Positions 16,497 through 60,699 of a stretch of DNA of 64,000 nucleotides are shown here, in pieces; position 1 is the stretch's first letter, and each line of letters opens with the position of its first letter. The translations under genes and the position numbers were made by a program. This DNA is from an uncultured Candidatus Saccharibacteria bacterium (GTDB taxonomy: Bacteria > Patescibacteriota > Minisyncoccia > 2-02-FULL-40-12 > GWA2-44-9): the NCBI GenBank assembly GCA_964513645.1, contig CAZENF010000002.1:8090-72089 (forward strand), written 5' to 3'. Below the pieces are notes generated by a model. That model saw nothing but the letters and a program-made list of their open reading frames with translations. It made no database searches and was not told the origin of the DNA.

Positions 16497-16524
16497 ATGA
16501 AGGTTGGCCTTCAGAGGAGCTTCC

Positions 16525-17280: not shown

Positions 17281-17387
17281 AATCGCCGCTGCGCAGTTAG
17301 AAGGTCAATCGTTATTGCGCAAGAGTGACGTTATTTTTAATATAAATTTTGACTCGTTTAACCCGTACTGGCGATTTTGTACGGGAT

Positions 17388-18200
17388 TCACAAGTTTAAT
17401 TTTACCAGATTCATCAAAACAGTAGCAATTACTACCGGACCCATTCCGCCCGGAACTGGAGTGAAGAGCGAGGCTACGCTCGAAACTGAATCTCCGTCCA
17501 TATCCCCGACCATCTTGCCATCTTTTTTCTCATAACCAAAATCAAAGGCGACAACTCCCTTTTTTAACATATCGCCGGTTATAATGCCAGGTTTACCGAC
17601 GCCCGAAACCACAATGTCCGCTCTTTTGACTCCTTCTTCAAAATCTTTAGTCTTGCTTCTTATCCGGATAACTCTGGCTCCGGCTGCTTCAAGCCAATGA
17701 GCTATCGGTTTGCCGATAAGCATGCCTTGCCCAAACACGGCAACGGTCCTGTCTTTAACATTGATACCATTCCTCTCGATGATTATCCTGACCGCCTCTA
17801 CCGCTGGTGGAAATATTTTTGATGCATTTTCATAGAACAGTTCCTGACTTTCGTCCGACAAAACATCCACATCCTTGGAAACCGGTACCGAACTTAGTAC
17901 TTCGGAAGCATTAATATGTTCGGGTAATGGCAATTCGATTAAAACCCCGTCGGCCCTGGCTGAAATAGCCGCCGATTCCTCCTTTAGTTTTTGAGTAGTT
18001 ATATCTTCAGGAAATTCGCACATCTTAAAACTTACTCCGATCTTTTCCGCCGCCTTGCCTTTTAACTCAACAAATTTTTTAAATTCAGGGCTTGTCCCGA
18101 CTAAAACAGCTGCCAATTGCAGCTTTAGATCCTTGTCTTCAACTTCTTTTTTGAGCTGATTTAAAAGCTCTTCGGCGATAAGCCGACCCTGAATTATCAT
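17388..18200 (-). CDS. folD: Bifunctional methylene-THF dehydrogenase/cyclohydrolase
   Basis: FolD-like sequence at ~270 aa. It overlaps glyA by 4 nt. Confidence 0.88.
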   Translation of the reverse strand: MIIQGRLIAEELLNQLKKEVEDKDLKLQLAAVLVGTSPEFKKFVELKGKAAEKIGVSFKMCEFPEDITTQKLKEESAAISARADGVLIELPLPEHINASEVLSSVPVSKDVDVLSDESQELFYENASKIFPPAVEAVRIIIERNGINVKDRTVAVFGQGMLIGKPIAHWLEAAGARVIRIRSKTKDFEEGVKRADIVVSGVGKPGIITGDMLKKGVVAFDFGYEKKDGKMVGDMDGDSVSSVASLFTPVPGGMGPVVIATVLMNLVKLNL

Positions 18201-47392: not shown

Positions 47393-47421
47393 CAAAAAAA
47401 ACCGCTTTTGGGAAGCGGTTT
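47393..47421 (-). terminator. Rho-independent terminator
   Basis: On the minus strand, aaccgctt-cccaa-aagcggtt followed by tttttttt. Confidence 0.65.
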
Positions 47422-47884
47422 AATCTTTGTCTAACTCCGGGTGCCAGAGAATCTTTTCAATTTTGCGGGTATTATCGTATGTGTAATCATGTTCAACGGG
47501 TACGCCTTCATTGAATGAGCTGTTACTGACGGCCTTATTGTTGCCGATATAAAATCCGATGTGGCTATGTTCTACTCCATCGCCAAAATCTTTTTTTTCC
47601 CAAACAAGAACTGCTCCCGGCTGGAAATTGGTTGTTTCCGACCAACCAGAACTCAAAAGATCCTCAACTGTTCTTTCTACTGTTGCATGGATGTCTGAAA
47701 TGAGCTTGTTAATATACAAGATCGATGACACGAATACGGCGCAGCTTAAGCGGCCGTTATCGAGGATATCTTTCTCAACACCGTCAGATTCAACATACAA
47801 ATTCCGGAACATCATATTCCGCGGTTGAACTGAATTACCTATCATGGTCAGATAGTTTTTCTTTTGAAGTAACCTCAACGGCAT
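47420..47884 (-). CDS. Putative NlpC/P60-like or permuted papain-fold hydrolase
   Basis: A Cys (SCAVFVSS) and a HSHIGFYIGN His motif. The assignment is weak. Confidence 0.35.
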   Translation of the reverse strand: MPLRLLQKKNYLTMIGNSVQPRNMMFRNLYVESDGVEKDILDNGRLSCAVFVSSILYINKLISDIHATVERTVEDLLSSGWSETTNFQPGAVLVWEKKDFGDGVEHSHIGFYIGNNKAVSNSSFNEGVPVEHDYTYDNTRKIEKILWHPELDKD

Positions 47885-47970: not shown

Positions 47971-50900
47971 CTAATATGGCGCGACTTCACGCCACTGGGG
48001 CAGTTTCTGGCCGATATAGAGATTGTTTTGATAGGTACATGAACCAGCATTATCAGTTGCGGTCAAAGAAACAGGAAAAGAACCGTTACCCGTAAATACA
48101 ACGCTGTAAGGCCCTTGAGTCCCTGTACCGGCCGGTGTCGGTACACCGGTTCCAAAATTCCAACTCCATGTCTTTCCCGATGAACTAGGGGCAAATACGG
48201 TCGAATCGGTAAAAGTAACAGGCGAACCGGATACTGGACTTGCCGGACTATAAGTAAAGGCGGTTTGAGGAAATGCATGAACCGGAGTCGTCCAACTTGC
48301 CTGCGATGCCGGCGGATTTACGCCATTAATATATGTACTCATCTTAACCCATGGCGACCAAACTCCGCTTGAATTCTGAACTCTGCCCCAGGCGGTATAT
48401 GTCGTATTCCAGACCATCTGACATGTCGTCTGTGGGCGGGTATCGGTCGGATTTAAAGTTACATTCGTGGAATTGTTGACCGGACAATTCGAAGTACTGC
48501 TTGAAAAAGTAGAGCCGCTGGTTATCGCTACCGGCACAGTTCCAGACTCCCATTCAGGATTCATGCTTGCACTGGCAACATTCGGATCGCTGACCAAATC
48601 ATTATCAATCATTGCTTGATAATTGATAGCGTTGAGACTTCCCGGATCTGTATAGATTCCCGAGACGGTAGCATGGACACCGGCACTGCAATAATAACCA
48701 TTGTTAACAGTCACGGTCATATTTGAAACACTTGGAGTCGGCACCGCGACATTGACAGTTACCTGGTCGGTGGCAATTCCTGCCGATCCATTACATGATA
48801 AAGTGTAAGTCGTATTCGCTATCAGGTTTGCGGTCGCAAGTGAGGTATTAACTATCGGGCCGTTAATGAAGTACCACTTCTGATTTGACGGTCGCCAGAC
48901 CGCAACTTCGGCCTTGCCTTTACTGTGATAGTATCCAGGGACAGGAACATCACCCGGAATACCGAGTTTTAAATTATAAGAGGCGGTGTAATTGCTTTCC
49001 GAGGTATATATAAACCAGTCCCCGGTACTTGGACGATATACGGCCAGGTCGGCCTTGCCGTCGCCGGTATAGTCTGCAGGTACCGGAATATCGGTTGCGG
49101 TGGCTAAGGCCAAGGTATAGCTGAGGCCGGCAGTCCAATTGCTGTTTGAAGTAAGTACCCACCAGGTTGTACTGGAAGGACGCCAAACAGCCATATCCGT
49201 TTTCCCGTCTCCGGTATAGTCTGCCTGAACAGGAACATCACCGGTCGTACCCCATGCTCTTGTAAAATATGTCTTATTGTTGTCATCGGAATTTAAAACA
49301 TACCAATAACCGGTATCCGGCTGGCCTGCACCAGAACGCCAAACAGCTAAATCTGCTTTCCCGTCACCGGTATAATCGCCTGGAACTGCAAGATCAAAAG
49401 TGGGAGTAGCTCCAAGACCCCAGCTAATATAAGGAGAAGGTGGGACAAGAACTGTATACCAACTCGTATAATTACTTTCCGAGGTCAGAACATACCAAGG
49501 ACCAGAACCGCTTCGCCATTCGCCAATATCTGTTTTTCCGTCACCGGTAAAATCAGCCATAGTCGGAACATCATAATAAGGACTATAAGCCAAAGTGAAC
49601 GGTATCGGAGTAACGTCGGTAACACCGTTTGGCGGAGAATAATCTATCGTCCAGCCGGAAGTTGCACTGTTAAAAATTGCAAGGTCTGTCAAGCCATCCC
49701 CGTTAAAATCACCCGACAACGGTGAACCTATCGCAGCTTTAAGATTAAGAGTTGTCGAATCGACTATTTGCTCGGCTGATTCGGGACGGCCGCCGGCAAC
49801 GCCAAATTGAAGCGAATAGGACGCTGGCCCAGGAGAAATAGTGCAACTATCGACGCTCGAACAGTTTACTCCGGTAGTTCCGCACCATCTTAAATTAGTA
49901 GAAGTGCCGGAATTAACACTGCAAGGACCGTTTGAAAAAGCTCCTGCTCCATTCGACTGACAAGTTGCATCAGCTGTCGCAGCGTTGGCATTGATAGTTA
50001 TCGCTGTGTCTGTGGAGTTACCGCCTGGATCAACACAGGTCAGATAAAAAGTTTTGCTTGGAGTTGTTATCGGACCCGTGGAATAAGTTCCGGAAGTTTG
50101 TCCATTATATAATTTTGCACTAAGTATCATGGTTCCGGGATCATACAAAGAAGTATCCAGACCGAGCGGGTAAGTTGGCGGTACGGTGCTGGTATAAAGT
50201 AAATTTCCATTTTGATAATATTTAACGGTTCCAAACTCAACCGCCACTCGCAAAAGGTCTCCGGCTGTATACGCTGCCAAAGGTCCTGCTTTCAAACTCC
50301 CTCCTTCGAATATATACAGATTGCCATCGACGTTGGGATATATCCCGTAATCAATGTCAGTATAGCTTTGATTTGAATCGCCATTTCCAAGTCCGGCAAT
50401 TTTATATTTAGTGGTATCGCCGACCACAAACTCAACATAGCCATCCCCCGAGGATATGGTTTGAATTGAAGAAGCACCTGTATCCCAGGCAGCCACTCCA
50501 CCTGTTTTAGTTATGGAACTTGCACCCACAGTGATATTTGCTGACGGTAGAATATTTTGCCATTGAACATTTGCGGCAGTCGGAGATACAAGTCCTGTTC
50601 CGATGTGGACATTGGATAAAGTCGCTCCGATACTGTAGAAAGATGAATCGAACAACAAAGGATAGGTCGGGAGGTTGGGGCTTGTGAACAAAAGCATCCC
50701 GTTCTTAAAATATTTAACCACACCCTTCTGTATTGCAACCCTGAAAATATCGCCTGCAACATAAGTCCCGACCGCAGCCCCGCCGTTTTGGAAAGCTGCG
50801 TTCTCTATGATATAGACATGGCCGTCTCCAGCAGCATAGAGAGCATATTTCATCTCAACATAACTCGGCGTGGTATCACTCGAGCTAAACCCTCCCATTT

Positions 50901-52161
50901 TATAAGCAGTGTTCTCAACGGTAGTAAATTCGACATAGCCGTCGCCGGAAGCGATAGTCTGGGTAGATGAGGCGCCTGCATCCCAGACATTATTTGTACC
51001 TCCGGTTTTGGTCAAAGTATTCCCGGTCACCGTTAAGGCGGTTACGTTCTGCCAAGTCGCATTGGACGGCGCACTCGTTGCCAGAGCACAGTATTGGGAA
51101 TTGGGACAAGGATTAGAAGCACCTCCGCACCATCTCAAATTAGTAGAAGCTCCCGAATCAACCGTGCAAGGACCATTTGAATAAGCTCCGGCTCCATTAG
51201 ATTGGCAGGTAATATCAGCTACCGGCGCTGGAACCAAAAGATTAAAATTAGTCTGAAAATTTACCCAGCCGGAAGATAAAGTTGTTAGGCCATTATAGAG
51301 ATAACCGGAAATATCATTATCGATGACCGGGGTTGTGTAGGGCAACTGGAAACGGACGGTAAAAACCGTAGTTCTGCTGTTTCCTGAAACAGAAGTAGTA
51401 CAAGCATCGAGATGGATGTTGGCGTCGCCATAACCTGGCTGAACCGCCGCATGGCCGCCTCCGGTACAGGCCCGGTAATCCTGATAGCCGTTCCAAGCAT
51501 CTAAATAATACCAGGTCAAATATCCCCTGTATAAAGGAGCGTTCTCACCTTGAAGATTTATAAGAACATATTCATGAGTGATATTCGCGCTCCCGGTGGA
51601 ATCGGAGCCGGTAATCGTAATATTATACTGGGTCGTATTGTCGGTCGTAACCAAAGGAGAACTGATGGTAACATTGTCTACGGTTGGGGGAGGGGCGGCG
51701 TATGCGGCCTGGGCATAATAAGCTGCCTGCCCATAATAAGTCGACTGGGCGTAGTAGGATGATTGGGAATAGCCATACGTTCCTTGGGCATAAGGATATG
51801 TTGCTTCGGCATAAGGATATGTTCCTTGGGCATAAGGATATGTTGCTTCGGCATAAGGATATGCTGCTTCGGCATAAGTTATAATACAAGATTCAAAAGG
51901 CCCGCAAGCATAAGCAGGGGCCGCACATCCGCCGCACGAATAAGTCGTCCCATAACAAGGGTCGTCGTTTCTTGTAGCACAAGAAGTACACACGTCAGAA
52001 CTATAAACCGGGTTGTCTCCGCAAGGAGGATCGTTATTACCATGACATGTGTATCTTAAAAGACACACCATTGACGAAGCGTCTTTAACGCTTAAAGACA
52101 AGCTCAGAAATATAACAGCCACAGGAACTAAGACCAAAAAAACAGCATACCGATGTTTCAT
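47971..52161 (-). CDS. Giant secreted protein of 1396 aa with a Cys-rich N-domain, Tyr-rich tandem repeats, a duplicated module and six FG-GAP/VCBS-like repeats
   Basis: N-terminal transmembrane/signal segment. A Cys-rich block DDPCYGTTYSCGGCAAPAYACGPFESC. YPYAEAT x5 and YYAQ-type repeats. A CQSNGAGAxSNGPCxVxSGxSTNLRWCG module occurs twice. Repeats DFNGDGLTDLAIF, DFTGDGKTDIGEWR, DYTGDGKADLAVWR, DYTGDGKTDMAVWRP and DYTGDGKADLAVYRP follow. Confidence 0.7.
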   Translation of the reverse strand: MKHRYAVFLVLVPVAVIFLSLSLSVKDASSMVCLLRYTCHGNNDPPCGDNPVYSSDVCTSCATRNDDPCYGTTYSCGGCAAPAYACGPFESCIITYAEAAYPYAEATYPYAQGTYPYAEATYPYAQGTYGYSQSSYYAQSTYYGQAAYYAQAAYAAPPPTVDNVTISSPLVTTDNTTQYNITITGSDSTGSANITHEYVLINLQGENAPLYRGYLTWYYLDAWNGYQDYRACTGGGHAAVQPGYGDANIHLDACTTSVSGNSRTTVFTVRFQLPYTTPVIDNDISGYLYNGLTTLSSGWVNFQTNFNLLVPAPVADITCQSNGAGAYSNGPCTVDSGASTNLRWCGGASNPCPNSQYCALATSAPSNATWQNVTALTVTGNTLTKTGGTNNVWDAGASSTQTIASGDGYVEFTTVENTAYKMGGFSSSDTTPSYVEMKYALYAAGDGHVYIIENAAFQNGGAAVGTYVAGDIFRVAIQKGVVKYFKNGMLLFTSPNLPTYPLLFDSSFYSIGATLSNVHIGTGLVSPTAANVQWQNILPSANITVGASSITKTGGVAAWDTGASSIQTISSGDGYVEFVVGDTTKYKIAGLGNGDSNQSYTDIDYGIYPNVDGNLYIFEGGSLKAGPLAAYTAGDLLRVAVEFGTVKYYQNGNLLYTSTVPPTYPLGLDTSLYDPGTMILSAKLYNGQTSGTYSTGPITTPSKTFYLTCVDPGGNSTDTAITINANAATADATCQSNGAGAFSNGPCSVNSGTSTNLRWCGTTGVNCSSVDSCTISPGPASYSLQFGVAGGRPESAEQIVDSTTLNLKAAIGSPLSGDFNGDGLTDLAIFNSATSGWTIDYSPPNGVTDVTPIPFTLAYSPYYDVPTMADFTGDGKTDIGEWRSGSGPWYVLTSESNYTSWYTVLVPPSPYISWGLGATPTFDLAVPGDYTGDGKADLAVWRSGAGQPDTGYWYVLNSDDNNKTYFTRAWGTTGDVPVQADYTGDGKTDMAVWRPSSTTWWVLTSNSNWTAGLSYTLALATATDIPVPADYTGDGKADLAVYRPSTGDWFIYTSESNYTASYNLKLGIPGDVPVPGYYHSKGKAEVAVWRPSNQKWYFINGPIVNTSLATANLIANTTYTLSCNGSAGIATDQVTVNVAVPTPSVSNMTVTVNNGYYCSAGVHATVSGIYTDPGSLNAINYQAMIDNDLVSDPNVASASMNPEWESGTVPVAITSGSTFSSSTSNCPVNNSTNVTLNPTDTRPQTTCQMVWNTTYTAWGRVQNSSGVWSPWVKMSTYINGVNPPASQASWTTPVHAFPQTAFTYSPASPVSGSPVTFTDSTVFAPSSSGKTWSWNFGTGVPTPAGTGTQGPYSVVFTGNGSFPVSLTATDNAGSCTYQNNLYIGQKLPQWREVAPY

Positions 52162-52682
52162 TGAATTGAGACTAATAATATTTTTACTTTAATATTGTCT
52201 TTTGTTGTCTGCTCCATCTCTATTCTACCCTGGTAAATTACGCCTTGAATTTCTATGATGGCAGATCTTTCATCCCTGATGCCGCCCAACAATTTCCAGT
52301 CGTTGGAGTAAAGCACTTTAAAATAATCGAAATACGGTTGAGGAAGATTGCTTTTGATATCGAAATTAAATTCGTATCCATTTTTACCATTTTCGTATTG
52401 TACTTCTCTGGCTTGAAAGTTAGTGGCATTATTTGGTTTTAAAAAATTAAGTTCTGTCTGGAACGTGGCCGCACTTTTTTCTGACGCAATCGGAGGAATA
52501 ACAAGCTTTCCTGCATAACCGGAAATATTGAGTGATAAATTAGTATCCGGACTGGGAGCAGGTGTAGCCGAATTTACCAATAAATGACTGTCTTGTTTCT
52601 GGGTCTCGTACTTTGAGATCATAAAAAAAACCGAGGCCGCCAAAATCATCAAACCGAATATAATACCTTTTTTATCATTCAT
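52158..52682 (-). CDS. N-terminally membrane-anchored partner protein of 174 aa, paralogue of 54749..55279
   Basis: It overlaps the upstream giant gene by 4 nt. Its KPNNATNFQAREVQYENGKNGYEFNF compares with KINGATNLRISKVNYINGKQGYTDSF in the 176-aa paralogue. Confidence 0.5.
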   Translation of the reverse strand: MNDKKGIIFGLMILAASVFFMISKYETQKQDSHLLVNSATPAPSPDTNLSLNISGYAGKLVIPPIASEKSAATFQTELNFLKPNNATNFQAREVQYENGKNGYEFNFDIKSNLPQPYFDYFKVLYSNDWKLLGGIRDERSAIIEIQGVIYQGRIEMEQTTKDNIKVKILLVSIQ

Positions 52683-52732: not shown

Positions 52733-52781
52733 TAAAAATAAAAAAGCCGGTTTAGCAACCTTCTGATCGCTAAACCGGCTT
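52733..52781 (-). terminator. Rho-independent terminator with a 13-bp stem
   Basis: aagccggtttagc...gctaaaccggctt, followed by a T-run on the minus strand. Confidence 0.65.
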
Positions 52782-52796: not shown

Positions 52797-53276
52797 TTAT
52801 TTGAGCACCCCGTAGAACTTGATCCAGCCGCTGACACTTACTTCTTTGTTTGACCTAAAACCTACAAACTTATTGCCATCCAGTCCGTTAACTTCCAACT
52901 CGATACTTTTGGGATCGACTTCCATGTTTGAGTTCCGTACAACAATAACCCAGCACTTGTAACCACTGTGAATGTCGTTCCAAGACAAATCACAATGATC
53001 GGATCCTGGCCTGTTCTCCATAATAGCAATCTCGGTGTAAGCATCCGGTGGCCCTGGCACAGATCCAACCTCGGCCTTAAGGACCCCTTTCCCGAAATCA
53101 TTCAGGTCCACTTCGTAGCCACCCCACGGACCCGGCCAGTTAGTTCCAAAGATCTGCCGGAGCTGATATTCGGACGGCGTGTTATGAGCACTTGGAGCTA
53201 CGGGATTGAGGGATCCCCGATCGCAACCAGCAATCAATGGGACCACTAAAACCAGGGCCACGGAAAATAACTTCAT
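52797..53276 (-). CDS. Hypothetical lipoprotein
   Basis: A signal peptide with the lipobox LIAGC. Confidence 0.5.
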   Translation of the reverse strand: MKLFSVALVLVVPLIAGCDRGSLNPVAPSAHNTPSEYQLRQIFGTNWPGPWGGYEVDLNDFGKGVLKAEVGSVPGPPDAYTEIAIMENRPGSDHCDLSWNDIHSGYKCWVIVVRNSNMEVDPKSIELEVNGLDGNKFVGFRSNKEVSVSGWIKFYGVLK

Positions 53277-53411: not shown

Positions 53412-54752
53412 TCAAGGTATCGGCGGCCTCTGGCCTCTAAGAATGGAGTCGACGAGGTAGACGAAACCTTTGCCGATAAGGACGATTATAAACCCGATAA
53501 GAGCCCAGAAGAGGATATTCTTGGCCTTTTGGATCTCACCAGGGTTACCTCTCGAAAAGACGAACCTTATGCCGGCGTATAGGATAAGGATGACTATTAA
53601 TGAACCTGCGATGTTTAATATCCAATTGGAGATGAGGGTTATTAGTCCAAAGATATCATAAGGCTGGCCGTAGAGAGGATTTACTATCCTCCAGGGGATG
53701 CTGACGGGTTGGCCGGGGTTGATAGGGCCCGGACCATTATTACAAGCACTGCTACCTGTCTGGCAAATGGTAACATTGGCGGACTGGGTTATGGTATAGT
53801 CGGGCCACAAAGCCCCCCCGTCACATTCTATCTTTGCGTAGTAATATTTAGTCCCGGTCGATTGGGGAGGATAAAAAGTAAAATTAGCACTTTCGTTTAA
53901 GTTCACTAATTGTTGAGTATTATCGAAATTAGCTACCCGCCGATAAATGAGAGGAACACCATTATCGTCAAAAATTGACCACAAAACATCTGTTGGCGGA
54001 TTACCAAAGGTGCTGTTGCACTTACCCCAGTCTATCAGTAAGGCCGGATAGACGTTTATACCGACTGTGGCATTTAGATTATCTCCGGAATTAGCTTGTT
54101 TTGGTTGAATATCAAATGTGACATCGACTCCAGGAATGGCTTGTGGGTTGGGAGTTGAGGTGGGGGGAATAGGCGTTGGGGTGGTATATGTTGCTTGAGC
54201 ATAATAGGCTGATTGGGCATAGTAGGATGATTGAGAATAGCCCGGGCCATATGATGCTTGGGCATAGTAGGCAGCTTGGGCATAGTAGGCAGCTTGGGCA
54301 TAGTAGGCAGCTTGGGCATAGTAAGTCGATTGACCGTAGTATGCGGACTGGCCATAATAGGATGACTGACCGTAGTATGTTGATTGGGCATAGTAAGATG
54401 CCTGACTATAGTAAGACGCTTGAGCATAGTAGCTTGACTCTGAATAATACGCCGCCTCTGAATACGCGGCAACGCAACTATAAAAAGGTCCACAGGATCT
54501 TCCGGCTGAACATCCACCGCAGGTATAGGTTGCACCGCCACAGGGATCATCTGTTCTTTGAACGCATGTCCCGCTGCAAGCTGACATGACCGGACAATCA
54601 CCACAAAAACCGGTTCCAGGCCCGCAGTTAGGAGAACATTGGTAGCCAGTAATGCAGGAGGTCTGGGCAGAAACATACCCGCTAAAATACAAAAACGCCA
54701 GGATTACCAAGATAAAGGTTAAGATCGTTGTGAAAAGATATTTTTGTCTCAT
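53412..54752 (-). CDS. Secreted Cys-rich / Tyr-repeat protein with a C-terminal two-helix hairpin resembling VirB2/TrbC-type pilins
   Basis: The N-terminal domain is paralogous to the 1396-aa protein (DDPCGGATYTCGGCSAGRSCGPFYSC). It carries (S/A)YYAQ x~14 repeats. The C-terminus GLITLISNWILNIAGSLIVILILYAGIRFVFSRGNPGEIQKAKNILFWALIGFIIVLIG has two transmembrane helices separated by a short charged loop. Confidence 0.55.
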   Translation of the reverse strand: MRQKYLFTTILTFILVILAFLYFSGYVSAQTSCITGYQCSPNCGPGTGFCGDCPVMSACSGTCVQRTDDPCGGATYTCGGCSAGRSCGPFYSCVAAYSEAAYYSESSYYAQASYYSQASYYAQSTYYGQSSYYGQSAYYGQSTYYAQAAYYAQAAYYAQAAYYAQASYGPGYSQSSYYAQSAYYAQATYTTPTPIPPTSTPNPQAIPGVDVTFDIQPKQANSGDNLNATVGINVYPALLIDWGKCNSTFGNPPTDVLWSIFDDNGVPLIYRRVANFDNTQQLVNLNESANFTFYPPQSTGTKYYYAKIECDGGALWPDYTITQSANVTICQTGSSACNNGPGPINPGQPVSIPWRIVNPLYGQPYDIFGLITLISNWILNIAGSLIVILILYAGIRFVFSRGNPGEIQKAKNILFWALIGFIIVLIGKGFVYLVDSILRGQRPPIP

Positions 54753-55279
54753 GGAAGGGTCACAATATATATATCGATATCAACCTTGCCGTTTCCTTTG
54801 GGATAAAATACGATCCGGCTTTGATAATTAAAAGTTTTTAGATCGATAACGGACAAAGCGTTGTTGTGGGCCGCATACACAACCTGCCAATCCTGATTAG
54901 AATTAAATTTTAAAGAATATTCGGAAAAGACATTTTCCATTGACCGGCCTACTTCAAAAGAATCAGTATAACCTTGTTTACCATTGATATAATTAACTTT
55001 GCTAATGCGGAGATTCGTTGCACCGTTAATTTTAAAAATATTAAAAACTGGGGGTAATGAATTTACTCCTGTTCGAGAAGCGACTCTCGGAAAGTCTATA
55101 TTGTCACCGAGTACGGAATTTCTCACACCGGAAACGGAGGGCAACGGTGATTTAGGCCCAATTTTGTCGGAATTCGTTTGGGTCCTACTCTTGATTATAA
55201 TGAGATACGAGGACCCTAAAGCCATGATTATAATAAACGTGCTTATTATAATAGTTTTCTTGGAGGCCATACTATTCAA
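54749..55279 (-). CDS. Membrane-anchored partner protein of 176 aa, paralogue of 52158..52682
   Basis: A 4-nt overlap with the upstream gene, an N-terminal transmembrane segment, and colinear similarity to the 174-aa protein. Confidence 0.5.
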   Translation of the reverse strand: MNSMASKKTIIISTFIIIMALGSSYLIIIKSRTQTNSDKIGPKSPLPSVSGVRNSVLGDNIDFPRVASRTGVNSLPPVFNIFKINGATNLRISKVNYINGKQGYTDSFEVGRSMENVFSEYSLKFNSNQDWQVVYAAHNNALSVIDLKTFNYQSRIVFYPKGNGKVDIDIYIVTLP

Positions 55280-55328: not shown

Positions 55329-56528
55329 CTACTTAAAACATTTTGTTTTCCAGGGTTCGGGTAAGGCGTTGCACATATTGATGAAATCCGAAGAGCCCTG
55401 ATGAAAATTATATTTTGAATAGAAAAGGAGTTCATTGTAACAAGTGTCCCCCACTCCGAACTCCTCGGCTGCCCGGCAAAAGGCAACCGATTTATCTATA
55501 AGCCGGTAGTCCGTTTCTATGAACCTGGAGGCCGAATCGGCAAAACATTGGCCTTTGATATTCTGGGGTAAAGCCCGACATAGAGTTTCAATTGTCGGCT
55601 GGTCAAAATTCACCTGAACCGGTATCACAAAGAACATTGCACTCAAACATCTGTTCTTTAAATTTTGGTCCCGGGTAAAGGAACAAAATTTGACCAGGCC
55701 GTCCGGAGTTAATATCTGACTACGTGATAGCGGCCAGGATTCATTGTGGCATGAGGCCGCAGGAATACTTGAGAACTTGTCGCACAACTTAAAAGCCGCC
55801 GCCGGTGTGTGGGGAGCGATATTTTTCACCAAAGCAAAATCTTCATCTTCAAGCGGTTGGAATATTTGCATAAAATTCCCGTCGTAACATACCTGAAGAA
55901 AATTGCGTCCGTCCGGTTTAACCGCGACTTTCTGGCAAAGGTCATTGGACTTTTTAGCATCCGCTTCGGTAATATACATCAGAAGATGTCCCAATGCATG
56001 GTAACAACTGGCCTGCTCCATTCCGGTCGGATGCCAATTCTGTCTTTCTTCACAGACCCCCTGAAGTTGGGGCAAAATGCTGTTTATTTGACTGTCATCA
56101 AGCGCCTCCGTCCTGAATCTCTCCTGAAAAGCCCCGTGGATACAGCCATTAGAACAGAGCCCGCTCGGACACTCGGTCACAACATCCGCCCATTTCGAAG
56201 GATCTTTTTTTGTTTCCCGCGCACTTAAGTTATGACCCAGAACATGACAGAACACATAACTTTTGTCCTCGTCCTGAACAAGTCTGGTAACCTGAAAAGC
56301 ATCTTGCATTGAAATATAGTCCATCAGTTTCGGTATCTCGGTGTCATAGCAGGTCGGTTTATAAGATTCTTTGGAACACTTAACCACGATCTGGTCGGCA
56401 TATTCCTGAAGGGTTTTGACAGATCCGGTTTTAGAGATCTTAAAAAAATAAATACCGTAAGCCGAGGCCGCTCCGACAAGGATTATAAATAGAGAAAGGT
56501 AAAAAGTTTTGGATGAAAAAAGTTTCAT
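55329..56528 (-). CDS. Secreted Cys/His-rich protein, paralogue family member 1
   Basis: An N-terminal transmembrane segment, FCHVLGHNL and CYHALGHLL motifs, and about 22 Cys. Confidence 0.5.
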   Translation of the reverse strand: MKLFSSKTFYLSLFIILVGAASAYGIYFFKISKTGSVKTLQEYADQIVVKCSKESYKPTCYDTEIPKLMDYISMQDAFQVTRLVQDEDKSYVFCHVLGHNLSARETKKDPSKWADVVTECPSGLCSNGCIHGAFQERFRTEALDDSQINSILPQLQGVCEERQNWHPTGMEQASCYHALGHLLMYITEADAKKSNDLCQKVAVKPDGRNFLQVCYDGNFMQIFQPLEDEDFALVKNIAPHTPAAAFKLCDKFSSIPAASCHNESWPLSRSQILTPDGLVKFCSFTRDQNLKNRCLSAMFFVIPVQVNFDQPTIETLCRALPQNIKGQCFADSASRFIETDYRLIDKSVAFCRAAEEFGVGDTCYNELLFYSKYNFHQGSSDFINMCNALPEPWKTKCFK

Positions 56529-56532
56529 AAAT

Positions 56533-58032
56533 TTATTGACCGGAACAGAATTTTTGATAATCTTTGTCGACCGATGAACAGATCTCGGTCCTCTTTTGAG
56601 AATTGTACCAAATGCTCAACCTCGTCAAAATATATCTGTAACACTCGTTTCGTTCATCGTCCTTAAGTTCGGGCCGTTTACAAAATGCCAAACCCTTAAC
56701 ATATTCTTTGCCAGGTTCTCCGTATTTCATGTGTCCGCCGGCCAATCCTTCTACACACGGCAGTCTTAGGTCACCAGAAACAGAGTGGCATAAATTTATT
56801 CCATCCAAAATATCAAAATCCTGGCTACGAGTATGCAATCTTATGTATTCATGGAACAAACTTACCGCGGTCATTTCCTTAACCGTGTAGCCGAAGAGCT
56901 CGAGATTTTCCTTATCACCATCAGAAGGAATTGTTTCGATCTTTTTTACTTCTTCTTTAAAATTCTCACGATAAAGAATTTCAATTGCCGGAAGCATATT
57001 GGTATAGCAAGCTTCCTTGTTGTTTATCGGCTGGGTTTTACAGAAAGAAAAAGGGTCTTTAGCCAACTCATCTAATTGATATTTATCATTGTGAGACAGG
57101 ATCTCAATAGAGTTATAGGCCCCGGAAATGCAGCGGTACCTTTCCATCGGATTGCTTGCCACGCCATCACATATCTTCAATCCGGGTTTGATCATTTTTT
57201 CAGGGTCTCCCCAGGCCTCGGTATCGTCGCCATCCACTGTCCCGTGGCCTATTCCATGAAAACACGCTCCCCCGGCATCGGAGGTTTGTCCGCTTAGTTG
57301 TTTTTGGGCATAATCACAAAATTCTTTGGCCTTGGACGGGTCTCCGGTTTTTTTCAAAAGCGCTTCCATAAAACCATGATAAAAACCATAAGCGCAGTAT
57401 GATGTCTTGGGGCTTAATTTGATATCTTGATGTTGAGAAAATCTTTCATAAGCCGCCTGACCGAGACGATGAACAAAACCGTGGCAGTTGGCGGCAAAAT
57501 ACGGGTCAGACTCGTAAAGCTGGGCTAATTGCTGGAAAGCAACGTCAAGACCTTTGGTTTCGAGGGTGTTGTCCAAGGAATCTTCCCAGCATTGGATCTT
57601 GTCGTTTTGTTGAGGATCATTGCAGTTAATTTTTACGGCCGAACCGTTACGGTCGAGAACATTTATCACTCCTCTTGAAGAAGGATCTAAGTGGTTATGA
57701 AATTTCCAGCTGCCGATCCTATCAAATTTAAAACTCCATGATTTATCGGGGTCTACCGGGTGCTTCGGGTCAAATTCAGGATAAATGTCGTGTGTCGGAT
57801 GCGGATCGGAAGCAGGCCAGAATGCTTGGTCTAATTGGGTCGTAAAGATTACAGTATCTCCCTGGTTGATGGTCAATGTTGAAGGGAAAAAACCGTCTTT
57901 GGTCATAGAAACGGTATAATTTTTGGAATTAGCAGGAAAATATTTATAAAAAAATCCAAAAACATAAATGAGAGTTAAGAAAAGAACCAAGACGATTATT
58001 TTAAGCTTCGTGTTTTGTAAAATTTTTATCAA
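56533..58032 (-). CDS. Secreted protein with a cupredoxin-like N-domain plus a Cys/His-rich domain, paralogue family member 2
   Basis: N-terminal transmembrane segment. TINQGDTVIFTT...WPASDPHPTHDIYPEF...SWSFKF..GSWKFHNHLDP is a cupredoxin/EfeO-like beta-sandwich pattern. It also carries CHGFVHRLG and CFHGIGHG. Confidence 0.5.
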   Translation of the reverse strand: MIKILQNTKLKIIVLVLFLTLIYVFGFFYKYFPANSKNYTVSMTKDGFFPSTLTINQGDTVIFTTQLDQAFWPASDPHPTHDIYPEFDPKHPVDPDKSWSFKFDRIGSWKFHNHLDPSSRGVINVLDRNGSAVKINCNDPQQNDKIQCWEDSLDNTLETKGLDVAFQQLAQLYESDPYFAANCHGFVHRLGQAAYERFSQHQDIKLSPKTSYCAYGFYHGFMEALLKKTGDPSKAKEFCDYAQKQLSGQTSDAGGACFHGIGHGTVDGDDTEAWGDPEKMIKPGLKICDGVASNPMERYRCISGAYNSIEILSHNDKYQLDELAKDPFSFCKTQPINNKEACYTNMLPAIEILYRENFKEEVKKIETIPSDGDKENLELFGYTVKEMTAVSLFHEYIRLHTRSQDFDILDGINLCHSVSGDLRLPCVEGLAGGHMKYGEPGKEYVKGLAFCKRPELKDDERNECYRYILTRLSIWYNSQKRTEICSSVDKDYQKFCSGQ

Positions 58033-58047
58033 AGATGTGATGATTTT

Positions 58048-59484
58048 TTATTTTACCGGGGCACATTTCTTATTATATTTAACATCGATCTGAGAACAAA
58101 TATATTTTTGTTTCTCTGCTGGGTAAATGTTGCTTTCCTGCCAGATCAAATTATTATAACAAGCGATTTTTTGTTCTTCGGTAAGAAGAGGGTTAGCGCA
58201 AAACGCTAAGGGCTTGGTATATTCCAGATCAGGCGTACCAACCTCGATCAAACCCTCAATGTATCCTTCAATACACGGGGTGACCAGTCTTTTCTGAAGA
58301 GATTGGCAAACTTTTACCTGTTTTGAATAATCAGCCAGGTCCCACCCCGATTGTCCGTTAACATCCGACAAACTTCTCATGGTAGAAATGGCGTATTCAT
58401 CCTCTTTTATTGCTTCGACAAATTTAATAGCTTTTAAGAAATCGGAGTTGCTTATCGCCATTAGGTACGTGTTCATCTCCTCATAGCAAGTCAGTTTGGC
58501 ATAATCTTTTTCTAAGCTCCGACAATAAAAAAGAGGGTCGGACTCGTTCTTGCGCAACTTTCCTTGATTATATGCAATTGCCATTGCATTGAACACTCCG
58601 CTTCCGCAGCGGTTAAGCATCTGGGGGTTAGGCGCAACCTTTTCGCACAAGGCCAGAGCAGGCATCACGACCGATCTTTCATTCGGCCAATCATTGTCAT
58701 CATCAACCGCGCCATGACCGATACCATGATAACATTTCCCCAAAGTATCAGCACTTACATTTTTCATCTTATCGTAGGCATAATTACAAAAATCCCTTGC
58801 CACACTCAAGTCATTAGTTTCATGAAGAAGAGTTTGCATAAAGCCGTGATAAAATCCGAAACTGCAATAAGAAACTTTTTCCGGTAAGGTAAAGTTTTTG
58901 TGTTCAGAAAATAAATAATACGCTTTTTCTCCCAACTTATGGACCAAGCCGTGGCAGTAGTATTTAAAATCCGGGTCATTGTTATATGAGTCCGAGATCA
59001 TATTAAATGTTCCTTCCAATCCTTTGCTCTCAATAATAGAATCGATGTTGGTGTCCCAGCATTGAGCCCTATTTTCCTCCGAAACATGTACGCAATCAAC
59101 ATAAGGAATCTTACCGTCAGAGCCACGAACTTTGACTATCCCCTGGTAGTAAGGATCGAGGTGGTCATGGAATTTCCAATTACCGGCTTTATCGAACTTA
59201 AAGCTCCAAGATTTATCAGAGTCTATCGGACGTTTGGGATCAAATTCCGGGTACAAGGTGTGGGTCGGATGGATATCCGAAGCCGGCCAGAATGGTTTCG
59301 TAAGTCGGGTAGTGAAAACTACCATGTCGCCCTGGTTAATAGTTATGTTTGAGGGTGAAAAGCCGTCTTTGGTTAGAGAAATGTAGTAAGTGGCTGGCGA
59401 CTGATGGATAAAAAATTTAAACAGGTAAAAAGCCCCTAAAACAGCACAAAAAAGAATGAGAAGTAAGATCAGACGGTATTTCAT
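58048..59484 (-). CDS. Secreted protein with a cupredoxin-like N-domain plus a Cys/His-rich domain, paralogue family member 3
   Basis: Colinear with the 499-aa paralogue: ITINQGDMVVFTT...WPASDIHPTHTLYPEF, CHGLVHKLG and CYHGIGHG. Confidence 0.5.
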   Translation of the reverse strand: MKYRLILLLILFCAVLGAFYLFKFFIHQSPATYYISLTKDGFSPSNITINQGDMVVFTTRLTKPFWPASDIHPTHTLYPEFDPKRPIDSDKSWSFKFDKAGNWKFHDHLDPYYQGIVKVRGSDGKIPYVDCVHVSEENRAQCWDTNIDSIIESKGLEGTFNMISDSYNNDPDFKYYCHGLVHKLGEKAYYLFSEHKNFTLPEKVSYCSFGFYHGFMQTLLHETNDLSVARDFCNYAYDKMKNVSADTLGKCYHGIGHGAVDDDNDWPNERSVVMPALALCEKVAPNPQMLNRCGSGVFNAMAIAYNQGKLRKNESDPLFYCRSLEKDYAKLTCYEEMNTYLMAISNSDFLKAIKFVEAIKEDEYAISTMRSLSDVNGQSGWDLADYSKQVKVCQSLQKRLVTPCIEGYIEGLIEVGTPDLEYTKPLAFCANPLLTEEQKIACYNNLIWQESNIYPAEKQKYICSQIDVKYNKKCAPVK

Positions 59485-59493
59485 CGACGATAA

Positions 59494-60699
59494 TTATCCC
59501 ACCCTTAATACTTTTTTGCATTCGGCCTTGTGAATTTCAGGCACCGTAGAACAAAATGACTTATAGTATCCGGGGTCTTTGATATAGTAGCTGACCATTC
59601 CAAAGAGATCTTCAAAACAAGGGTACTGGTAAACCTGGTCCGAAATAGAATTGCAAAACCTTATTGCACCGTCCGGCTTATTCTCCCCTCCCCAGTATAG
59701 AGAGGCGGTCGAATTTTCAATGCACGCCTGTGTTCCGTTCTTGTCATTTGCCAAAAGGCACCAAGCATAAACTTTCTGAAATTGTTCGGTTGTCATATCT
59801 GCAACATTTCTGATGTCCCGGTTCTGAGCCAGGACAATGAACTCTTTGCCAAATCCTCCGTAGCAAATATTCCGGTTTGGATCCGATAGCGGTAATTTAG
59901 AACAATACTGAAATGCTTTTGAGAAATCAGCCGGGCCGGGATGATTAATATCCGCTCCGGCAAATTCGAAAAGATACGGCGTTAAATAGGTATAGCACAT
60001 TAATTTCGCCCCGGAAGGGATTAAGTCCGTATCGCAGGGGGTCAGAGCATCATTCTTGGTAAAGTATATCTTTCTCTGACGCCCCCATGCGATCTTGTCG
60101 TGGAATCCCCCGCTTATCATCTCCATTATCGAACCTCCGACACATTGCGGATATTCCTGATAATTATATTCCGGCGTACCGGTCTTTTGGCACATCTCCA
60201 CCGTTTTTTTAAGGTCGTAATCCAGATACGCCAGGATACCATGACCAAGTCCGTGGAAACACATGGTATAGGCACCTGACCCCCCCGGAGCATGTCTGCA
60301 GGCATCAGAGATTGCGTCAAGAGCACTTTCGCCCTTATCAAAAAAGAGTCCAACCACGATAGAGTGCGAACAGGCGTTCCTGAAATCTTGGGTACATTTA
60401 TAAATACCTTTCAAACCTTCTTTTTTATACAAAACATCGCCGATCGCATGACCAAGGAGATGGAAGTCCGTATTCGGAGGCAAGTCAGCGGTTTTTAAAA
60501 CCTCAAAAGCATATTCAGGACTTTTTTGATTTGCGAGGTCCTCAAAATATTTTTTAAGCTCACTGAAAGACTGGGAATGTTTTTTCACGTCCTGAAGTTC
60601 TGGATAAGATGTTTTCTTAGAAGAGTAAGACCATACTAAAAGACCTGCCACCAGAACCAATAAAAAAAGACCTGAAAATATTTTATAAGACAGTTTCAT
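59494..60699 (-). CDS. Secreted Cys/His-rich protein, paralogue family member 4
   Basis: An N-terminal transmembrane segment with FHLLGHAIG and CFHGLGHG. Confidence 0.5.
   Translation of the reverse strand: MKLSYKIFSGLFLLVLVAGLLVWSYSSKKTSYPELQDVKKHSQSFSELKKYFEDLANQKSPEYAFEVLKTADLPPNTDFHLLGHAIGDVLYKKEGLKGIYKCTQDFRNACSHSIVVGLFFDKGESALDAISDACRHAPGGSGAYTMCFHGLGHGILAYLDYDLKKTVEMCQKTGTPEYNYQEYPQCVGGSIMEMISGGFHDKIAWGRQRKIYFTKNDALTPCDTDLIPSGAKLMCYTYLTPYLFEFAGADINHPGPADFSKAFQYCSKLPLSDPNRNICYGGFGKEFIVLAQNRDIRNVADMTTEQFQKVYAWCLLANDKNGTQACIENSTASLYWGGENKPDGAIRFCNSISDQVYQYPCFEDLFGMVSYYIKDPGYYKSFCSTVPEIHKAECKKVLRVG

What the first reader, a model, noticed from the sequence alone, without database searches (positions are those of the whole stretch)
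53412..55279. Adhesin-like protein ending in a VirB2/TrbC-type pilin hairpin, duplicated as a module with a small partner
The 446-aa protein has the same Cys-rich N-domain as the 1396-aa giant (conserved DDPC.G.TY.CGGC....CGPF.SC) and (S/A)YYAQ repeats. It ends with two hydrophobic helices separated by a short charged loop (…ILYAGIRFVFSRGNPGEIQKAKNILFWALIGFIIVLIG…), the topology of conjugative and T4SS pilins.

Both this gene and the giant gene are followed, with a 4-nt overlap, by paralogous ~175-aa membrane-anchored partners (52158..52682 and 54749..55279). That arrangement implies a two-component structural unit (fibre subunit plus assembly or anchor factor?) that has been duplicated and diversified.
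Basis: inference. Interest (0 to 1): 0.62.

Follow-up and report, generated by a model that had tools for sequence, protein, structure and literature searches.

The report
Surface protein anchored by conjugative-type pilin
An ultra-small (Patescibacteria) bacterium encodes a 446-residue secreted surface protein whose tail is a known VirB2-like secretion-system pilin domain. The small gene next to it belongs to a separate, undescribed family that accompanies cysteine-rich secreted proteins in general, not pilins.

Summary
ORF 53412..54752 (-) encodes 446 aa in this order: signal peptide, a 12-Cys knot, about 16 (S/A)YYAQ repeats, an Ig-like beta-sandwich and a C-terminal helical hairpin. The hairpin passes Pfam's threshold for T4SS_pilin (PF18895, 37 bits against 26.6). 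That family is the VirB2-like pilins already described in Patescibacteria.

Related loci show that "long" pilins carrying passenger domains are routine:
- 73 of 85 loci hold one, 182-1480 aa long.
- They almost always sit inside tandem arrays of 3-8 pilin genes.

Here the gene is solitary. The 64-kb window holds no other pilin and no T4SS or type IV pilus machinery.

The ~175-aa "partners" are real paralogues, each joined to its large gene by an ATGA overlap. They lie upstream of the large genes, not after them. They belong to an unannotated family of 171 cluster representatives.
- The family is absent from all 85 pilin loci.
- In all 6 external contexts it directly precedes a secreted protein with a Cys-rich N-terminus and no pilin domain.

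So the duplicated unit is partner plus Cys/Tyr-rich N-module. The pilin tail is an independent addition. This is a new variant of a known kind, of moderate interest.

The parts
54749..55279 (-). Partner 2. Membrane-anchored protein of about 175 aa: N-terminal TM helix plus an alpha+beta ectodomain. The probable start is the ATG at 55270 (173 aa). Its stop overlaps the start of the pilin-fusion gene (ATGA).
   Evidence: ORF. Paralogous to 52158..52682, E=3e-15. The family has 171 representatives at E<=1e-3 and no Pfam match. AlphaFold2 gives pLDDT 90.6, with a TM helix at 5-31 and the domain at 66-174. Junction shown. P0035 gives the start.
53412..54752 (-). 446-aa long-form VirB2-like pilin protein. 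It carries a passenger ectodomain followed by a C-terminal T4SS_pilin hairpin.
54666..54752 (-). Signal peptide, aa 1-29 (MRQKYLF...GYVSA|QT).
   Evidence: Read from the sequence: a hydrophobic core followed by VSA-Q. The model shows a helix at 2-29. Homologues carry equivalent N-termini. No dedicated signal-peptide predictor was available.
54468..54665 (-). Cys-rich N-domain, aa 30-95, with 12 Cys. Shared with the giant protein.
   Evidence: AlphaFold2 confidence is low here (pLDDT <50).
54192..54467 (-). Tyr-rich (S/A)YYAQ pentapeptide repeat region, aa 96-187, 32% Tyr.
   Evidence: DNA tandem repeats at 54195..54432. The same repeat type occurs in unrelated secreted proteins.
53748..54134 (-). 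Ig-like beta-sandwich domain, aa 207-335. Shared with other long pilins (P0008, P0009, P0010, P0013, P0021).
   Evidence: The model has strands from 209 to 331 with pLDDT about 70-89. Foldseek returns generic Ig-like, fn3 and carbohydrate-binding folds, E about 1e-3. Homologues cover 33-54% of the query.
53415..53654 (-). T4SS_pilin (VirB2-like) helical hairpin, aa 367-446. Helix 1 is 367-399, the basic loop is SRGNPGEIQKAK, helix 2 is 404-438. The Pfam match covers aa 369-433 (53454..53648).
   Evidence: PF18895 E=3.7e-9, 37 bits against a cut-off of 26.6. Model. The subfamily alignment has 61% mean column identity, with G56, P58 and GKGF invariant.
52797..53276 (-). 159-aa predicted lipoprotein (lipobox LIAGC). 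It is the last gene of the partner2/pilin operon. Function unknown.
   Evidence: for the sequence. No Pfam or NCBIfam match.
52744..52781 (-). Intrinsic-terminator-like hairpin (17-bp stem plus T-run) that separates the two operons.
52158..52682 (-). Partner 1 (174 aa), paralogue of partner 2. Joined by an ATGA overlap to the giant gene.
   Evidence: The partner HMM gives E=7.8e-47.
47971..52161 (-). 1396-aa giant surface protein. It has the same signal peptide, Cys-rich and Tyr-rich N-module, then FG-GAP repeats and a PKD domain. It has no pilin hairpin and no C-terminal TM segment.
   Evidence: Its C-terminal 250 aa are homologous to the partner-coupled 1138-aa protein in L096, E=2e-20.

Best explanation
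The 446-aa gene encodes a 'long-form' member of the Patescibacteria VirB2-like pilin family (Pfam T4SS_pilin, PF18895).

**Proposed route for the protein (inferred).**
1. The Sec system exports it and the signal peptide is removed.
2. The C-terminal hairpin inserts in the cytoplasmic membrane. Its basic loop, SRGNPGEIQKAK, faces the cytoplasm.
3. The 340-residue N-terminal passenger (Cys knot, Tyr-rich stalk, Ig-like domain) is held outside the cell.

**Most likely function (inferred).** The hairpin is the handle by which a T4SS encoded elsewhere in the genome recognises the protein. That T4SS then incorporates it as a minor, tip or decorating subunit of a VirB2-type pilus built mainly from short pilins. 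The passenger acts as the contact or adhesive end towards the host cell.

**The small upstream gene is a separate matter.** It belongs to an undescribed family of N-terminally anchored alpha+beta proteins. That family is translationally coupled to secreted proteins with Cys-rich N-termini. The duplicated unit in this window is [partner + Cys/Tyr-rich N-module]. In one copy the module is fused to a pilin-bearing body, and in the other to an FG-GAP/PKD giant. The partner most plausibly docks or chaperones the N-module of its cognate protein at the membrane surface (inferred).

**What is shown and what is inferred.** Shown: family membership, domain order, the arrays and long forms in relatives, and the independence of partner and pilin. 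Inferred: pilus incorporation, adhesion and the partner's role.
For: **The C-terminus is a pilin domain**
- The Pfam PF18895 match is above the gathering score.
- A helical hairpin is predicted with good confidence.
- Twenty-two of the 34 homologues carry PF18895, and they share only the last ~95 residues, at 46-76% identity. Their N-termini are unrelated.

**Long forms are normal in relatives**
- An HMM of this C-terminus directly recovers short (~100-150 aa) pilins in the same loci.
- 80 of 85 loci have at least 3 tandem pilin ORFs.
- 73 of 85 loci include a long ORF (182-1480 aa) with the domain at the extreme C-terminus.
- A 781-aa relative passes both PF18895 and TrbC/VirB2 PF04956, the latter at 33.7 bits against a cut-off of 27.9.
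- Passenger domains in relatives are typical surface modules: beta-propeller, fn3, Ig-like, SdrD_B.

**Conservation argues against a passive anchor**
- The cytoplasmic loop and the GKGF motif are invariant, while the passengers cannot be aligned.

**Literature**
- VirB2-like pilin arrays are widespread in Patescibacteria (PMC12102498).
- They are essential for epibiotic growth in Southlakia (PMC10633639, PMC12857230).

**Partner**
- The family has 171 representatives.
- The model is confident, pLDDT 90.6.
- ATGA coupling occurs twice here and once in L096.
- In all 6 external contexts a protein with a signal peptide and a Cys-rich N-terminus follows the partner gene on the same strand. In 5 the junction ranges from a 17-nt overlap to an 18-nt gap; L088 has an ~850-nt gap.
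Against: - The window holds no second pilin gene and no VirB4, VirB6, VirB3 or VirD4. Relatives sit in arrays, so this copy is atypical and could be a decoupled anchor.
- No pilus has been demonstrated for any Patescibacteria T4SS (PMC12857230).
- The TrbC model scores only 10.4 bits on this protein.
- A profile of the hairpin finds no solved pilin by sequence.
- Foldseek with the full model returned only beta-sandwich matches and no VirB2 or TraA.
- A 340-aa passenger on every subunit would be sterically hard to pack in a VirB2-type filament. Only sparse or tip incorporation is plausible.
- Partner-client binding is untested.
- The partner fold has no significant structural relative (best E=0.012, TM<=0.42).
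Confidence: 0.55

Rival explanations
1. Anchor only. The pilin hairpin has been co-opted purely as a C-terminal two-helix membrane anchor. It displays the ectodomain on the cell surface. The protein is never polymerised and never handled by a T4SS.
For: - The gene is solitary. It is far from any array or T4SS gene within 64 kb.
- Monoderm CPR lack sortase-type anchoring in many lineages (own knowledge).
- A large passenger is hard to fit into a filament.
- Some relatives carry the domain in the N-terminal part of a protein of 372-661 aa (L016-L018, L020-L025, L027). That shows it tolerates being an internal membrane module.
Against: - A passive anchor should drift. Instead the hairpin is 46-76% identical across genera, with an invariant cytoplasmic loop and GKGF motif, while the passengers are unalignable.
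- In 73 of 85 loci long forms are embedded in pilin arrays alongside short pilins.
Confidence: 0.28
2. The small partner is an assembly or anchor factor specific for the pilin-type fibre subunit, and the pair forms a two-component fibre unit.
For: - ATGA translational coupling and duplication of the pair.
- The partner is membrane-anchored with a folded ectodomain.
Against: - The partner HMM finds nothing in 85 pilin loci.
- None of the downstream cognates in the 6 external partner contexts has a pilin domain.
- The second copy in this window pairs with a protein that has no hairpin.
- The conserved upstream neighbour of orthologous long pilins in Yanofskybacteria is a different, unrelated protein.
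Confidence: 0.07
3. Pro-region. The 340-aa N-terminal part is a long leader or pro-domain. It is cleaved near the conserved W-x-I-x-N-P-L motif to release a small mature pilin.
For: - Classical VirB2 and TraA have unusually long leaders that are removed (own knowledge).
- A conserved motif, WxIxNPL, lies 10-20 residues before helix 1 in the long subfamily.
Against: - The protein already has a canonical signal peptide at its extreme N-terminus.
- The passenger contains a well-folded, conserved Ig-like domain. Relatives carry adhesin-type modules. Both are unlike a disposable leader.
- No protease is encoded nearby.
Confidence: 0.07
4. Chance resemblance. The C-terminus is simply two hydrophobic helices and has no evolutionary relation to T4SS pilins.
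For: - The TrbC/VirB2 model scores below threshold on this protein.
- No PDB pilin is found by sequence.
Against: - PF18895 gives E=3.7e-9, above the curated cut-off.
- There is direct HMM linkage to short pilins in arrays.
- Relatives pass PF04956.
- A sub-threshold hit to the Mycoplasma ICE pilin-like protein NF045849 covers the whole hairpin.
Confidence: 0.03

Closest known systems
Patescibacteria VirB2-like pilins (Pfam PF18895 T4SS_pilin): the pilin arrays of Southlakia epibionticum and TM7x (Wang et al. 2023, PMC10633639; Quinonero-Coronel et al. 2025, PMC12102498)
   Same: - Same Pfam family, above threshold.
- Same layout of signal peptide followed by a two-helix hairpin with a basic loop.
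- Same phylum.
- Relatives of this exact subfamily sit in such arrays.
   Different: - 446 aa with a 340-aa passenger, against the ~100-150 aa pilins the papers describe.
- Solitary: not in an array and not near virB4 within the window.
- Preceded by a partner-family gene.
- The papers read here do not discuss passenger-bearing long forms, although they occur in 73 of 85 loci examined.
Classical conjugative pilins TrbC/VirB2/TraA (Pfam PF04956) of diderm T4SS
   Same: - Hairpin of two hydrophobic helices joined by a short positively charged loop.
- Sec-dependent membrane insertion.
- Related long forms pass the PF04956 threshold.
   Different: - This protein scores 10.4 bits against a cut-off of 27.9.
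- No sequence match to any solved pilin.
- Monoderm host.
- Large N-terminal passenger.
- No evidence of cyclisation or of an assembled pilus.
Two-domain tip adhesins and minor pilins of other pilus systems, such as FimH (lectin domain plus pilin domain) and large type IV minor pilins. This is an analogy from general knowledge.
   Same: The design principle: a receptor-binding or contact domain covalently fused to a pilin module, which lets the filament machinery incorporate it.
   Different: - Unrelated folds and assembly machines.
- Here the pilin module is C-terminal and of the T4SS type.
- Incorporation into a filament is not shown.
Mycoplasma ICE 'Mbov_0395 family pilin-like conjugal transfer protein' (NCBIfam NF045849)
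   Same: - The whole hairpin (aa 367-433) aligns to profile positions 9-75 of 80, E=1.2e-5.
- It is a monoderm conjugation system of the MPF-FATA type, to which the Patescibacteria T4SS is related (PMC12102498).
   Different: The score is 24.9 bits, below the curated cut-off of 40, so this is a lead and not membership.
For the partner: Eag/SciW (DUF1795) chaperones, START/Bet v 1 helix-grip proteins and LolA-type carriers
   Same: Curved antiparallel sheet packed against helices. Foldseek probabilities run up to 0.99-1.00.
   Different: - E>=0.012 and TM<=0.42, so the match is not significant.
- The partner is N-terminally membrane-anchored and extracytoplasmic.
- No Pfam, NCBIfam or PDB sequence match.

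Membership tests
Pfam PF18895 T4SS_pilin (Patescibacteria VirB2-like pilins) | Match to the family HMM at or above the gathering score. | tested here: met
   E=3.7e-9, 37.0 bits against a cut-off of 26.6, aa 369-433 on profile positions 7-70 of 71.
Pfam PF18895 T4SS_pilin (Patescibacteria VirB2-like pilins) | Two hydrophobic helices forming a hairpin with a short, positively charged connecting loop. | tested here: met
   The AlphaFold2 model has helices at 367-399 and 404-438 with pLDDT about 80-86. The loop RFVFSRGNPGEIQKAKN carries a net positive charge (sequence).
Pfam PF18895 T4SS_pilin (Patescibacteria VirB2-like pilins) | N-terminal Sec signal peptide. | tested here: met
   Hydrophobic N-terminus ending VSA|Q, and a modelled helix at 2-29. 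This was read from the sequence. No dedicated predictor was available.
Pfam PF18895 T4SS_pilin (Patescibacteria VirB2-like pilins) | Gene lies in a tandem pilin array and/or next to virB4-type T4SS genes. This is typical but not obligatory: 1135 of 1948 assemblies have the pilin near virB4 (PMC12102498). | tested here: not met
   Only one pilin domain in 64 kb, with both the narrow and the broadened HMM. No T4SS Pfam families in any ORF of at least 120 aa. The rest of the 283-kb contig could not be reached.
Pfam PF18895 T4SS_pilin (Patescibacteria VirB2-like pilins) | Small size, about 100-150 aa. | tested here: not met
   446 aa. Long forms of 182-1480 aa are nevertheless present in 73 of 85 related loci, so small size is not a true requirement of the family.
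Classical TrbC/VirB2 conjugative pilin (Pfam PF04956) | Match to PF04956 above the gathering score. | tested here: not met
   10.4 bits against 27.9, E=0.77. A 781-aa relative in L001 does pass, at 33.7 bits.
Classical TrbC/VirB2 conjugative pilin (Pfam PF04956) | Sequence similarity to structurally solved conjugative pilins. | tested here: not met
   A profile of the hairpin against all PDB chains gave 0 hits at E<=10.
Classical TrbC/VirB2 conjugative pilin (Pfam PF04956) | Polymerises into an extracellular pilus, dependent on VirB4 and VirB6. | not testable with these tools
   Needs microscopy or biochemistry. Per PMC12857230, no pilus has yet been shown for any Patescibacteria T4SS.
Partner as a VirB8/PrgL-like T4SS component (N-terminal TM plus NTF2-like domain) | NTF2-like fold, or a match to a VirB8 or PrgL family. 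| tested here: not met
   No Pfam or NCBIfam hit in any of 62 members. No VirB8, PrgL or TcpC among the top 50 Foldseek PDB matches. Absent from 85 pilin loci.
Partner as an Eag/SciW (DUF1795) or START-like hydrophobic-ligand chaperone | Significant fold similarity (TM of at least 0.5, or E below 1e-3). | tested here: not met

The most novel reading that the evidence does not exclude
Two linked possibilities remain open.

1. **Covalent adhesin-pilin fusions.** Patescibacteria may build T4SS-type pili whose contact or adhesive domains are covalently fused to VirB2-like pilins. This design is unknown in classical T4SS, where VirB5 or TraN-type adhesins are separate proteins. The protein here would be one such 'adhesin-pilin'.

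2. **A new two-gene surface-display module.** The partner family plus the Cys-rich/Tyr-rich N-module may form a surface-display or bio-adhesive system. The membrane-anchored partner would dock or mature Cys-knot, Tyr-rich stalks. These stalks resemble the Tyr-rich repeats of marine adhesive proteins. Maturation might involve the neighbouring cupredoxin-like and Cys/His-rich proteins and DsbA-type oxidoreductases seen in related loci, for example through oxidative cross-linking.
Probability: 0.2. Interest if true: 0.65.

Novelty: new variant of a known kind. Interest (0 to 1): 0.4.

Why it matters
Patescibacteria are obligate epibionts. Their T4SS and its pilin array are essential for life on the host, yet nobody knows what the system builds or touches.

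Long pilins with surface-module passengers are common in these arrays. If they prove to be filament subunits, they are the obvious candidates for the host-contact end of the apparatus, and so for host specificity.

The partner family is a widespread, unannotated companion of Cys-rich secreted proteins in these reduced genomes. It offers a defined, testable two-gene unit for asking how giant surface proteins without anchors are retained or matured on a cell that lacks conventional anchoring systems.

If neither idea holds, the locus is simply one more variable surface-protein cluster of a CPR genome.

Tried and rejected
**Reaching the rest of the source genome**
- Exact look-ups of window proteins returned only short Logan contigs identical to the window.
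- Cluster look-ups gave no names. Whether the genome has a T4SS or a pilin array therefore remains open.

**Database scans for relatives**
- The genome-contig scan did not return the source genome.
- A closer pair of partners found nothing in metagenome contigs.
- The Cys-rich N-domain pair found nothing in metagenome contigs.
- Word-indexed homologue searches for the partner found only itself or 4 proteins. The exhaustive profile search was needed to reveal the family.

**Structure and family comparisons**
- Foldseek/PDB on the partner gave nothing significant.
- Foldseek/PDB on the full 446-aa model was dominated by generic beta-sandwiches. It could not test the hairpin against VirB2 or TraA.
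- PDB sequence searches were negative for the hairpin and matched only the TM region for the partner.

**Homology between upstream neighbours**
- I tested whether the conserved 245-262-aa upstream neighbour of orthologous long pilins is a disguised partner homologue. It is not: BLAST found nothing, hhalign gave probability 15%, and only TM helices aligned.

**Other checks**
- A literature search for the YYAQ repeat gave nothing relevant.
- Rfam and tRNA scans found only two tRNAs, neither near the locus.
- The alternative-frame ORFs inside the repeat (54074..54676 on the minus strand, 54176..54589 on the plus strand) are rejected as shadow ORFs of the low-complexity region.
Full report
**1. 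What is in the sequence**

The window is a chromosomal stretch of a Patescibacteria (CPR) genome. Housekeeping genes run along its whole length: DnaE, GyrB, TopA, RelA/SpoT, several aminoacyl-tRNA synthetases, ParAB and ribosomal proteins. The closest protein relatives come from Yanofskybacteria, Taylorbacteria and Paceibacterota.

All genes of the finding lie on the minus strand. In transcriptional order they are:
- partner 2, 54749..55279
- the 446-aa gene, 53412..54752
- a 159-aa lipoprotein gene, 52797..53276
- a strong terminator hairpin, 52781..52744
- partner 1, 52158..52682
- the 1396-aa giant, 47971..52161
- a second terminator-like hairpin

Both partner/large-gene junctions are ATGA overlaps. 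The partners therefore precede their large genes.

**2. Checking the observation**

- The N-termini of the 446-aa protein and the giant align at 43% identity over 152 residues, E=5e-20.
- Residues 30-95 contain 12 Cys. Residues 96-187 are 32% Tyr, in about 16 (S/A)YYAQ-type pentapeptides. The repeats are also visible as DNA tandem repeats.
- The two partners are 25% identical over their full length, E=3e-15.
- Short-read contigs from the same organism end inside the repeat, and a gene caller there picked a shadow frame. So the repeat number is an assembly uncertainty. The out-of-frame ORFs at 54074..54676 and 54176..54589 are artefacts.

**3. The C-terminus is a known pilin domain**

- Pfam T4SS_pilin (PF18895) matches residues 369-433 at E=3.7e-9, 37 bits against a gathering score of 26.6.
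- The classical TrbC/VirB2 model gives only 10.4 bits.
- AlphaFold2, run with 24 aligned sequences, gives these regions:
  - a signal-peptide helix
  - a low-confidence region at 29-202 (Cys-rich plus Tyr-rich)
  - a beta-sandwich at 209-331 (pLDDT ~70-89)
  - a helical hairpin at 367-399/404-438 (pLDDT ~80-86)
- Foldseek against the PDB returns only generic Ig-like, fn3 and carbohydrate-binding sandwiches. 'Adhesin-like' is therefore no more than a generic statement.
- A profile of the hairpin finds no solved structure by sequence.
- NCBIfam gives a sub-threshold, full-length hit to the Mycoplasma ICE 'pilin-like conjugal transfer protein'.

PF18895 is exactly the family used to define the VirB2-like pilins of Patescibacteria. 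These pilins occur in 1948 assemblies, often as arrays of 2-11 genes (PMC12102498). They are essential in Southlakia (PMC10633639). Whether they form a pilus is still open (PMC12857230).

**4. How this protein compares with its relatives**

Homologues share only the last ~95 residues, at 46-76% identity. Their N-termini are unrelated. A scan of species-representative genomes with that C-terminal alignment gave 80 loci. Together with three metagenomic contexts they show the following:
- 80 of 85 loci have at least 3 same-strand pilin ORFs.
- 73 of 85 loci contain at least one long ORF (182-1480 aa, median ~295) with the pilin domain at the extreme C-terminus, next to short ~100-150-aa pilins.
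- The passengers are beta-propeller repeats, fn3/Pur_ac_phosph_N, Ig-like or SdrD_B modules.
- One 781-aa relative passes the TrbC/VirB2 threshold as well.

Passenger-bearing long pilins are therefore a regular component of Patescibacteria pilin arrays, although the papers I could read do not discuss them.

In Parcubacteria the array sits in a conserved housekeeping synteny: GyrA, methyltransferase, SBP, the pilins, VanW, PrsW, IleRS. No VirB4 lies within 10 kb.

The window differs. Both a narrow and a broadened pilin HMM find a single pilin domain in 64 kb. No T4SS or type IV pilus family appears in any ORF of at least 120 aa. The remainder of the source contig (283 kb) could not be retrieved.

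**5. The partner is a separate story**

*The family*
- An exhaustive profile search finds 171 cluster representatives at E<=1e-3. Nearly all are 160-215 aa and matched end to end.
- None of 62 members has a meaningful Pfam match.
- The AlphaFold2 model is confident, pLDDT 90.6. It shows an N-terminal TM helix, a linker, then an alpha+beta domain with a curved sheet.
- Its best PDB matches are START, SciW/Eag and LolA. None is significant (E>=0.012, TM<=0.42).

*No link to pilins*
- The partner HMM finds no hit in any of the 85 pilin loci.
- The conserved upstream neighbour of orthologous long pilins is an unrelated signal-peptide/TM protein.

*A consistent downstream neighbour*

In all 6 external partner contexts I could retrieve, the gene directly downstream on the same strand encodes a protein with a signal peptide and 8-17 Cys in its first 150 residues. 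None of these proteins has a pilin domain.

| Locus | Junction | Downstream protein |
|---|---|---|
| L096 | ATGA overlap | 1138 aa; C-terminal 250 residues homologous to the giant's (E=2e-20), with the same ...P-x-W-[KR]-E-V-[SA]-P end |
| L094 | 4-nt gap | 531 aa; Cys-rich, then (P[ST]YP)n Tyr/Pro repeats |
| L090 | 1-nt gap | 369 aa |
| L092 | 18-nt gap | cut by the contig end |
| L088 (related to L092) | ~850-nt gap | cut by the contig end |
| L097 | 17-nt overlap | interrupted by an N run; lies next to a DsbA-like thioredoxin inside a type IV pilus gene cluster |

The conserved, duplicated unit is therefore [partner + secreted protein with a Cys-rich, often Tyr-rich, N-module]. In this window one copy of that N-module has been joined to an Ig-like-plus-pilin body of the Yanofskybacteria type. 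The other copy has been joined to an FG-GAP/PKD giant.

**6. Mechanism**

*Shown:* domain order, family membership, the prevalence of arrays and long forms, the conservation pattern, and the independence of partner and pilin.

*Inferred:* Sec export, then insertion of the hairpin with the basic loop inside the cell and the passenger outside.

The hairpin, including its cytoplasmic loop (SRGNPGE...) and the GKGF motif, is nearly invariant, while the passengers are unalignable. I therefore favour recognition by a conserved machine, meaning T4SS-dependent extraction or incorporation as a minor or tip subunit, over a passive anchor. The solitary position and the absence of any demonstrated pilus keep the 'anchor only' rival substantial.

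For the partner I propose membrane-proximal docking or chaperoning of the N-module. This would also explain how the anchor-less giant is retained. It is inference from gene coupling only.

**7. Verdict**

The pilin reading is right, but it identifies a member of a family already described. The protein is an unusual member: long, solitary, with a lineage-restricted Cys/Tyr-rich N-module.

The 'two-component unit' is real but is not a pilin-assembly unit. It belongs to an undescribed partner family that accompanies Cys-rich secreted proteins across Patescibacteria.

Interest is moderate. The locus points to two testable questions: are long pilins the host-contact subunits, and what does the partner do? 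It does not by itself overturn anything.

Noticed in passing
window 55329..60699 (-), four ORFs: 55329-56528, 56533-58032, 58048-59484, 59494-60699: Four tandem paralogous Cys-rich, N-terminally anchored proteins of 399-499 aa sit immediately upstream of the finding. The two central ones are 39% identical (E=3e-134) and start with a cupredoxin-like domain (Pfam below threshold, E=0.027). All carry repeated C..HG.GH-type motifs. None has a Pfam family. Homologues lie next to a partner-family gene in L094: three ~400-aa proteins (E down to 3e-20) and a stand-alone 130-aa cupredoxin 48% identical to the N-domain. The neighbourhood is therefore conserved.
   Followed up: partly
P0027, P0032, P0028, P0029, P0033, P0030 (homologues): The (S/A/G)YYAQ-type Tyr-rich pentapeptide repeats recur in otherwise unrelated secreted proteins. 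Examples are two type IV pilin-like proteins with an N-terminal methylation motif (PF07963 on record for P0032), PG_binding_1 proteins, a subtilase and a lamin-tail protein. The repeats are C-terminal in the two pilin-like proteins and the subtilase. The repeat looks like a promiscuous extracellular module. L094's partner-coupled protein has an analogous (P[ST]YP)n repeat.
   Followed up: partly
window 47971..52161 (-) giant, aa ~365-500 and ~525-660; P0003-P0006: A domain with the signature WQN..T..GNT[IL]TKTGG..WDAGASS.Q.I.SGDGYVEF occurs twice inside the giant. The same domain forms the N-terminal passenger of long pilins P0003-P0006. This indicates shuffling of surface modules between giants and pilin fusions.
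   Followed up: no
window 47971..48010 (C-terminus of the giant); L096 13900..13929; L094 and L090 neighbours: Partner-coupled proteins end in short conserved tails. The giant ends ...LPQWREVAPY and L096 ends ...PIPVWKEVSPK. Two L094 proteins end ...PTIIEVP. L090 and L097 proteins end ...F.Y.E[FL]. These may be C-terminal sorting or processing signals. They remain unexplained.
   Followed up: no
L097 1340..9764 and 14780..17405: In one genome (GCA_964464975.1) the partner module sits inside a type IV pilus cluster, directly after a DsbA-like thioredoxin gene. The cluster holds PilM, a PilO-like gene, PilB, PilT, PilC, N_methyl pilins and a prepilin peptidase. This fits Cys-rich clients that need disulfide formation.
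   Followed up: no
L001-L003, L006, L007, L009, L018, L021, L022: Parcubacteria pilin arrays sit in a conserved synteny: GyrA, methyltransferase, SBP_bac_1, pilin, a 245-262-aa signal-peptide/TM protein, long pilin(s), short pilins, VanW, PrsW, IleRS. No VirB4 lies within 10 kb. The 245-262-aa protein is a conserved family without Pfam. In L006 GyrA carries an intein.
   Followed up: partly
L016-L018, L020-L025, L027 (first pilin ORF of each array): Some array members carry the pilin domain near the N-terminus (aa ~25-160) of proteins of 372-661 aa. This is the opposite arrangement, with a C-terminal extension.
   Followed up: no
window 54074..54676 (-) and 54176..54589 (+); L004: Long shadow ORFs run in other frames or strands across the Tyr-rich repeat. 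In a short-read contig of the same organism the assembly stops within the repeat, and the gene caller chose the shadow frame (46-style look-up, 91).
   Followed up: yes
window 47420..47884 (-): The 154-aa protein just downstream of the giant has a weak match (E=6e-4) to the C-terminal part of the EntFM/CwpFM cell-wall peptidase. It may be an NlpC/P60-like hydrolase.
   Followed up: no
window 12001..14000: G+C drops to 0.346 here against ~0.42-0.45 elsewhere. The 243-aa ORF at 12815..13546 has a weak transposase-type HTH hit. This may be a mobile or foreign insert.
   Followed up: no
window 1910..2275 (-): A gene for a 23S rRNA intervening-sequence protein (PF05635) is present although the window holds no rRNA.
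   Followed up: no
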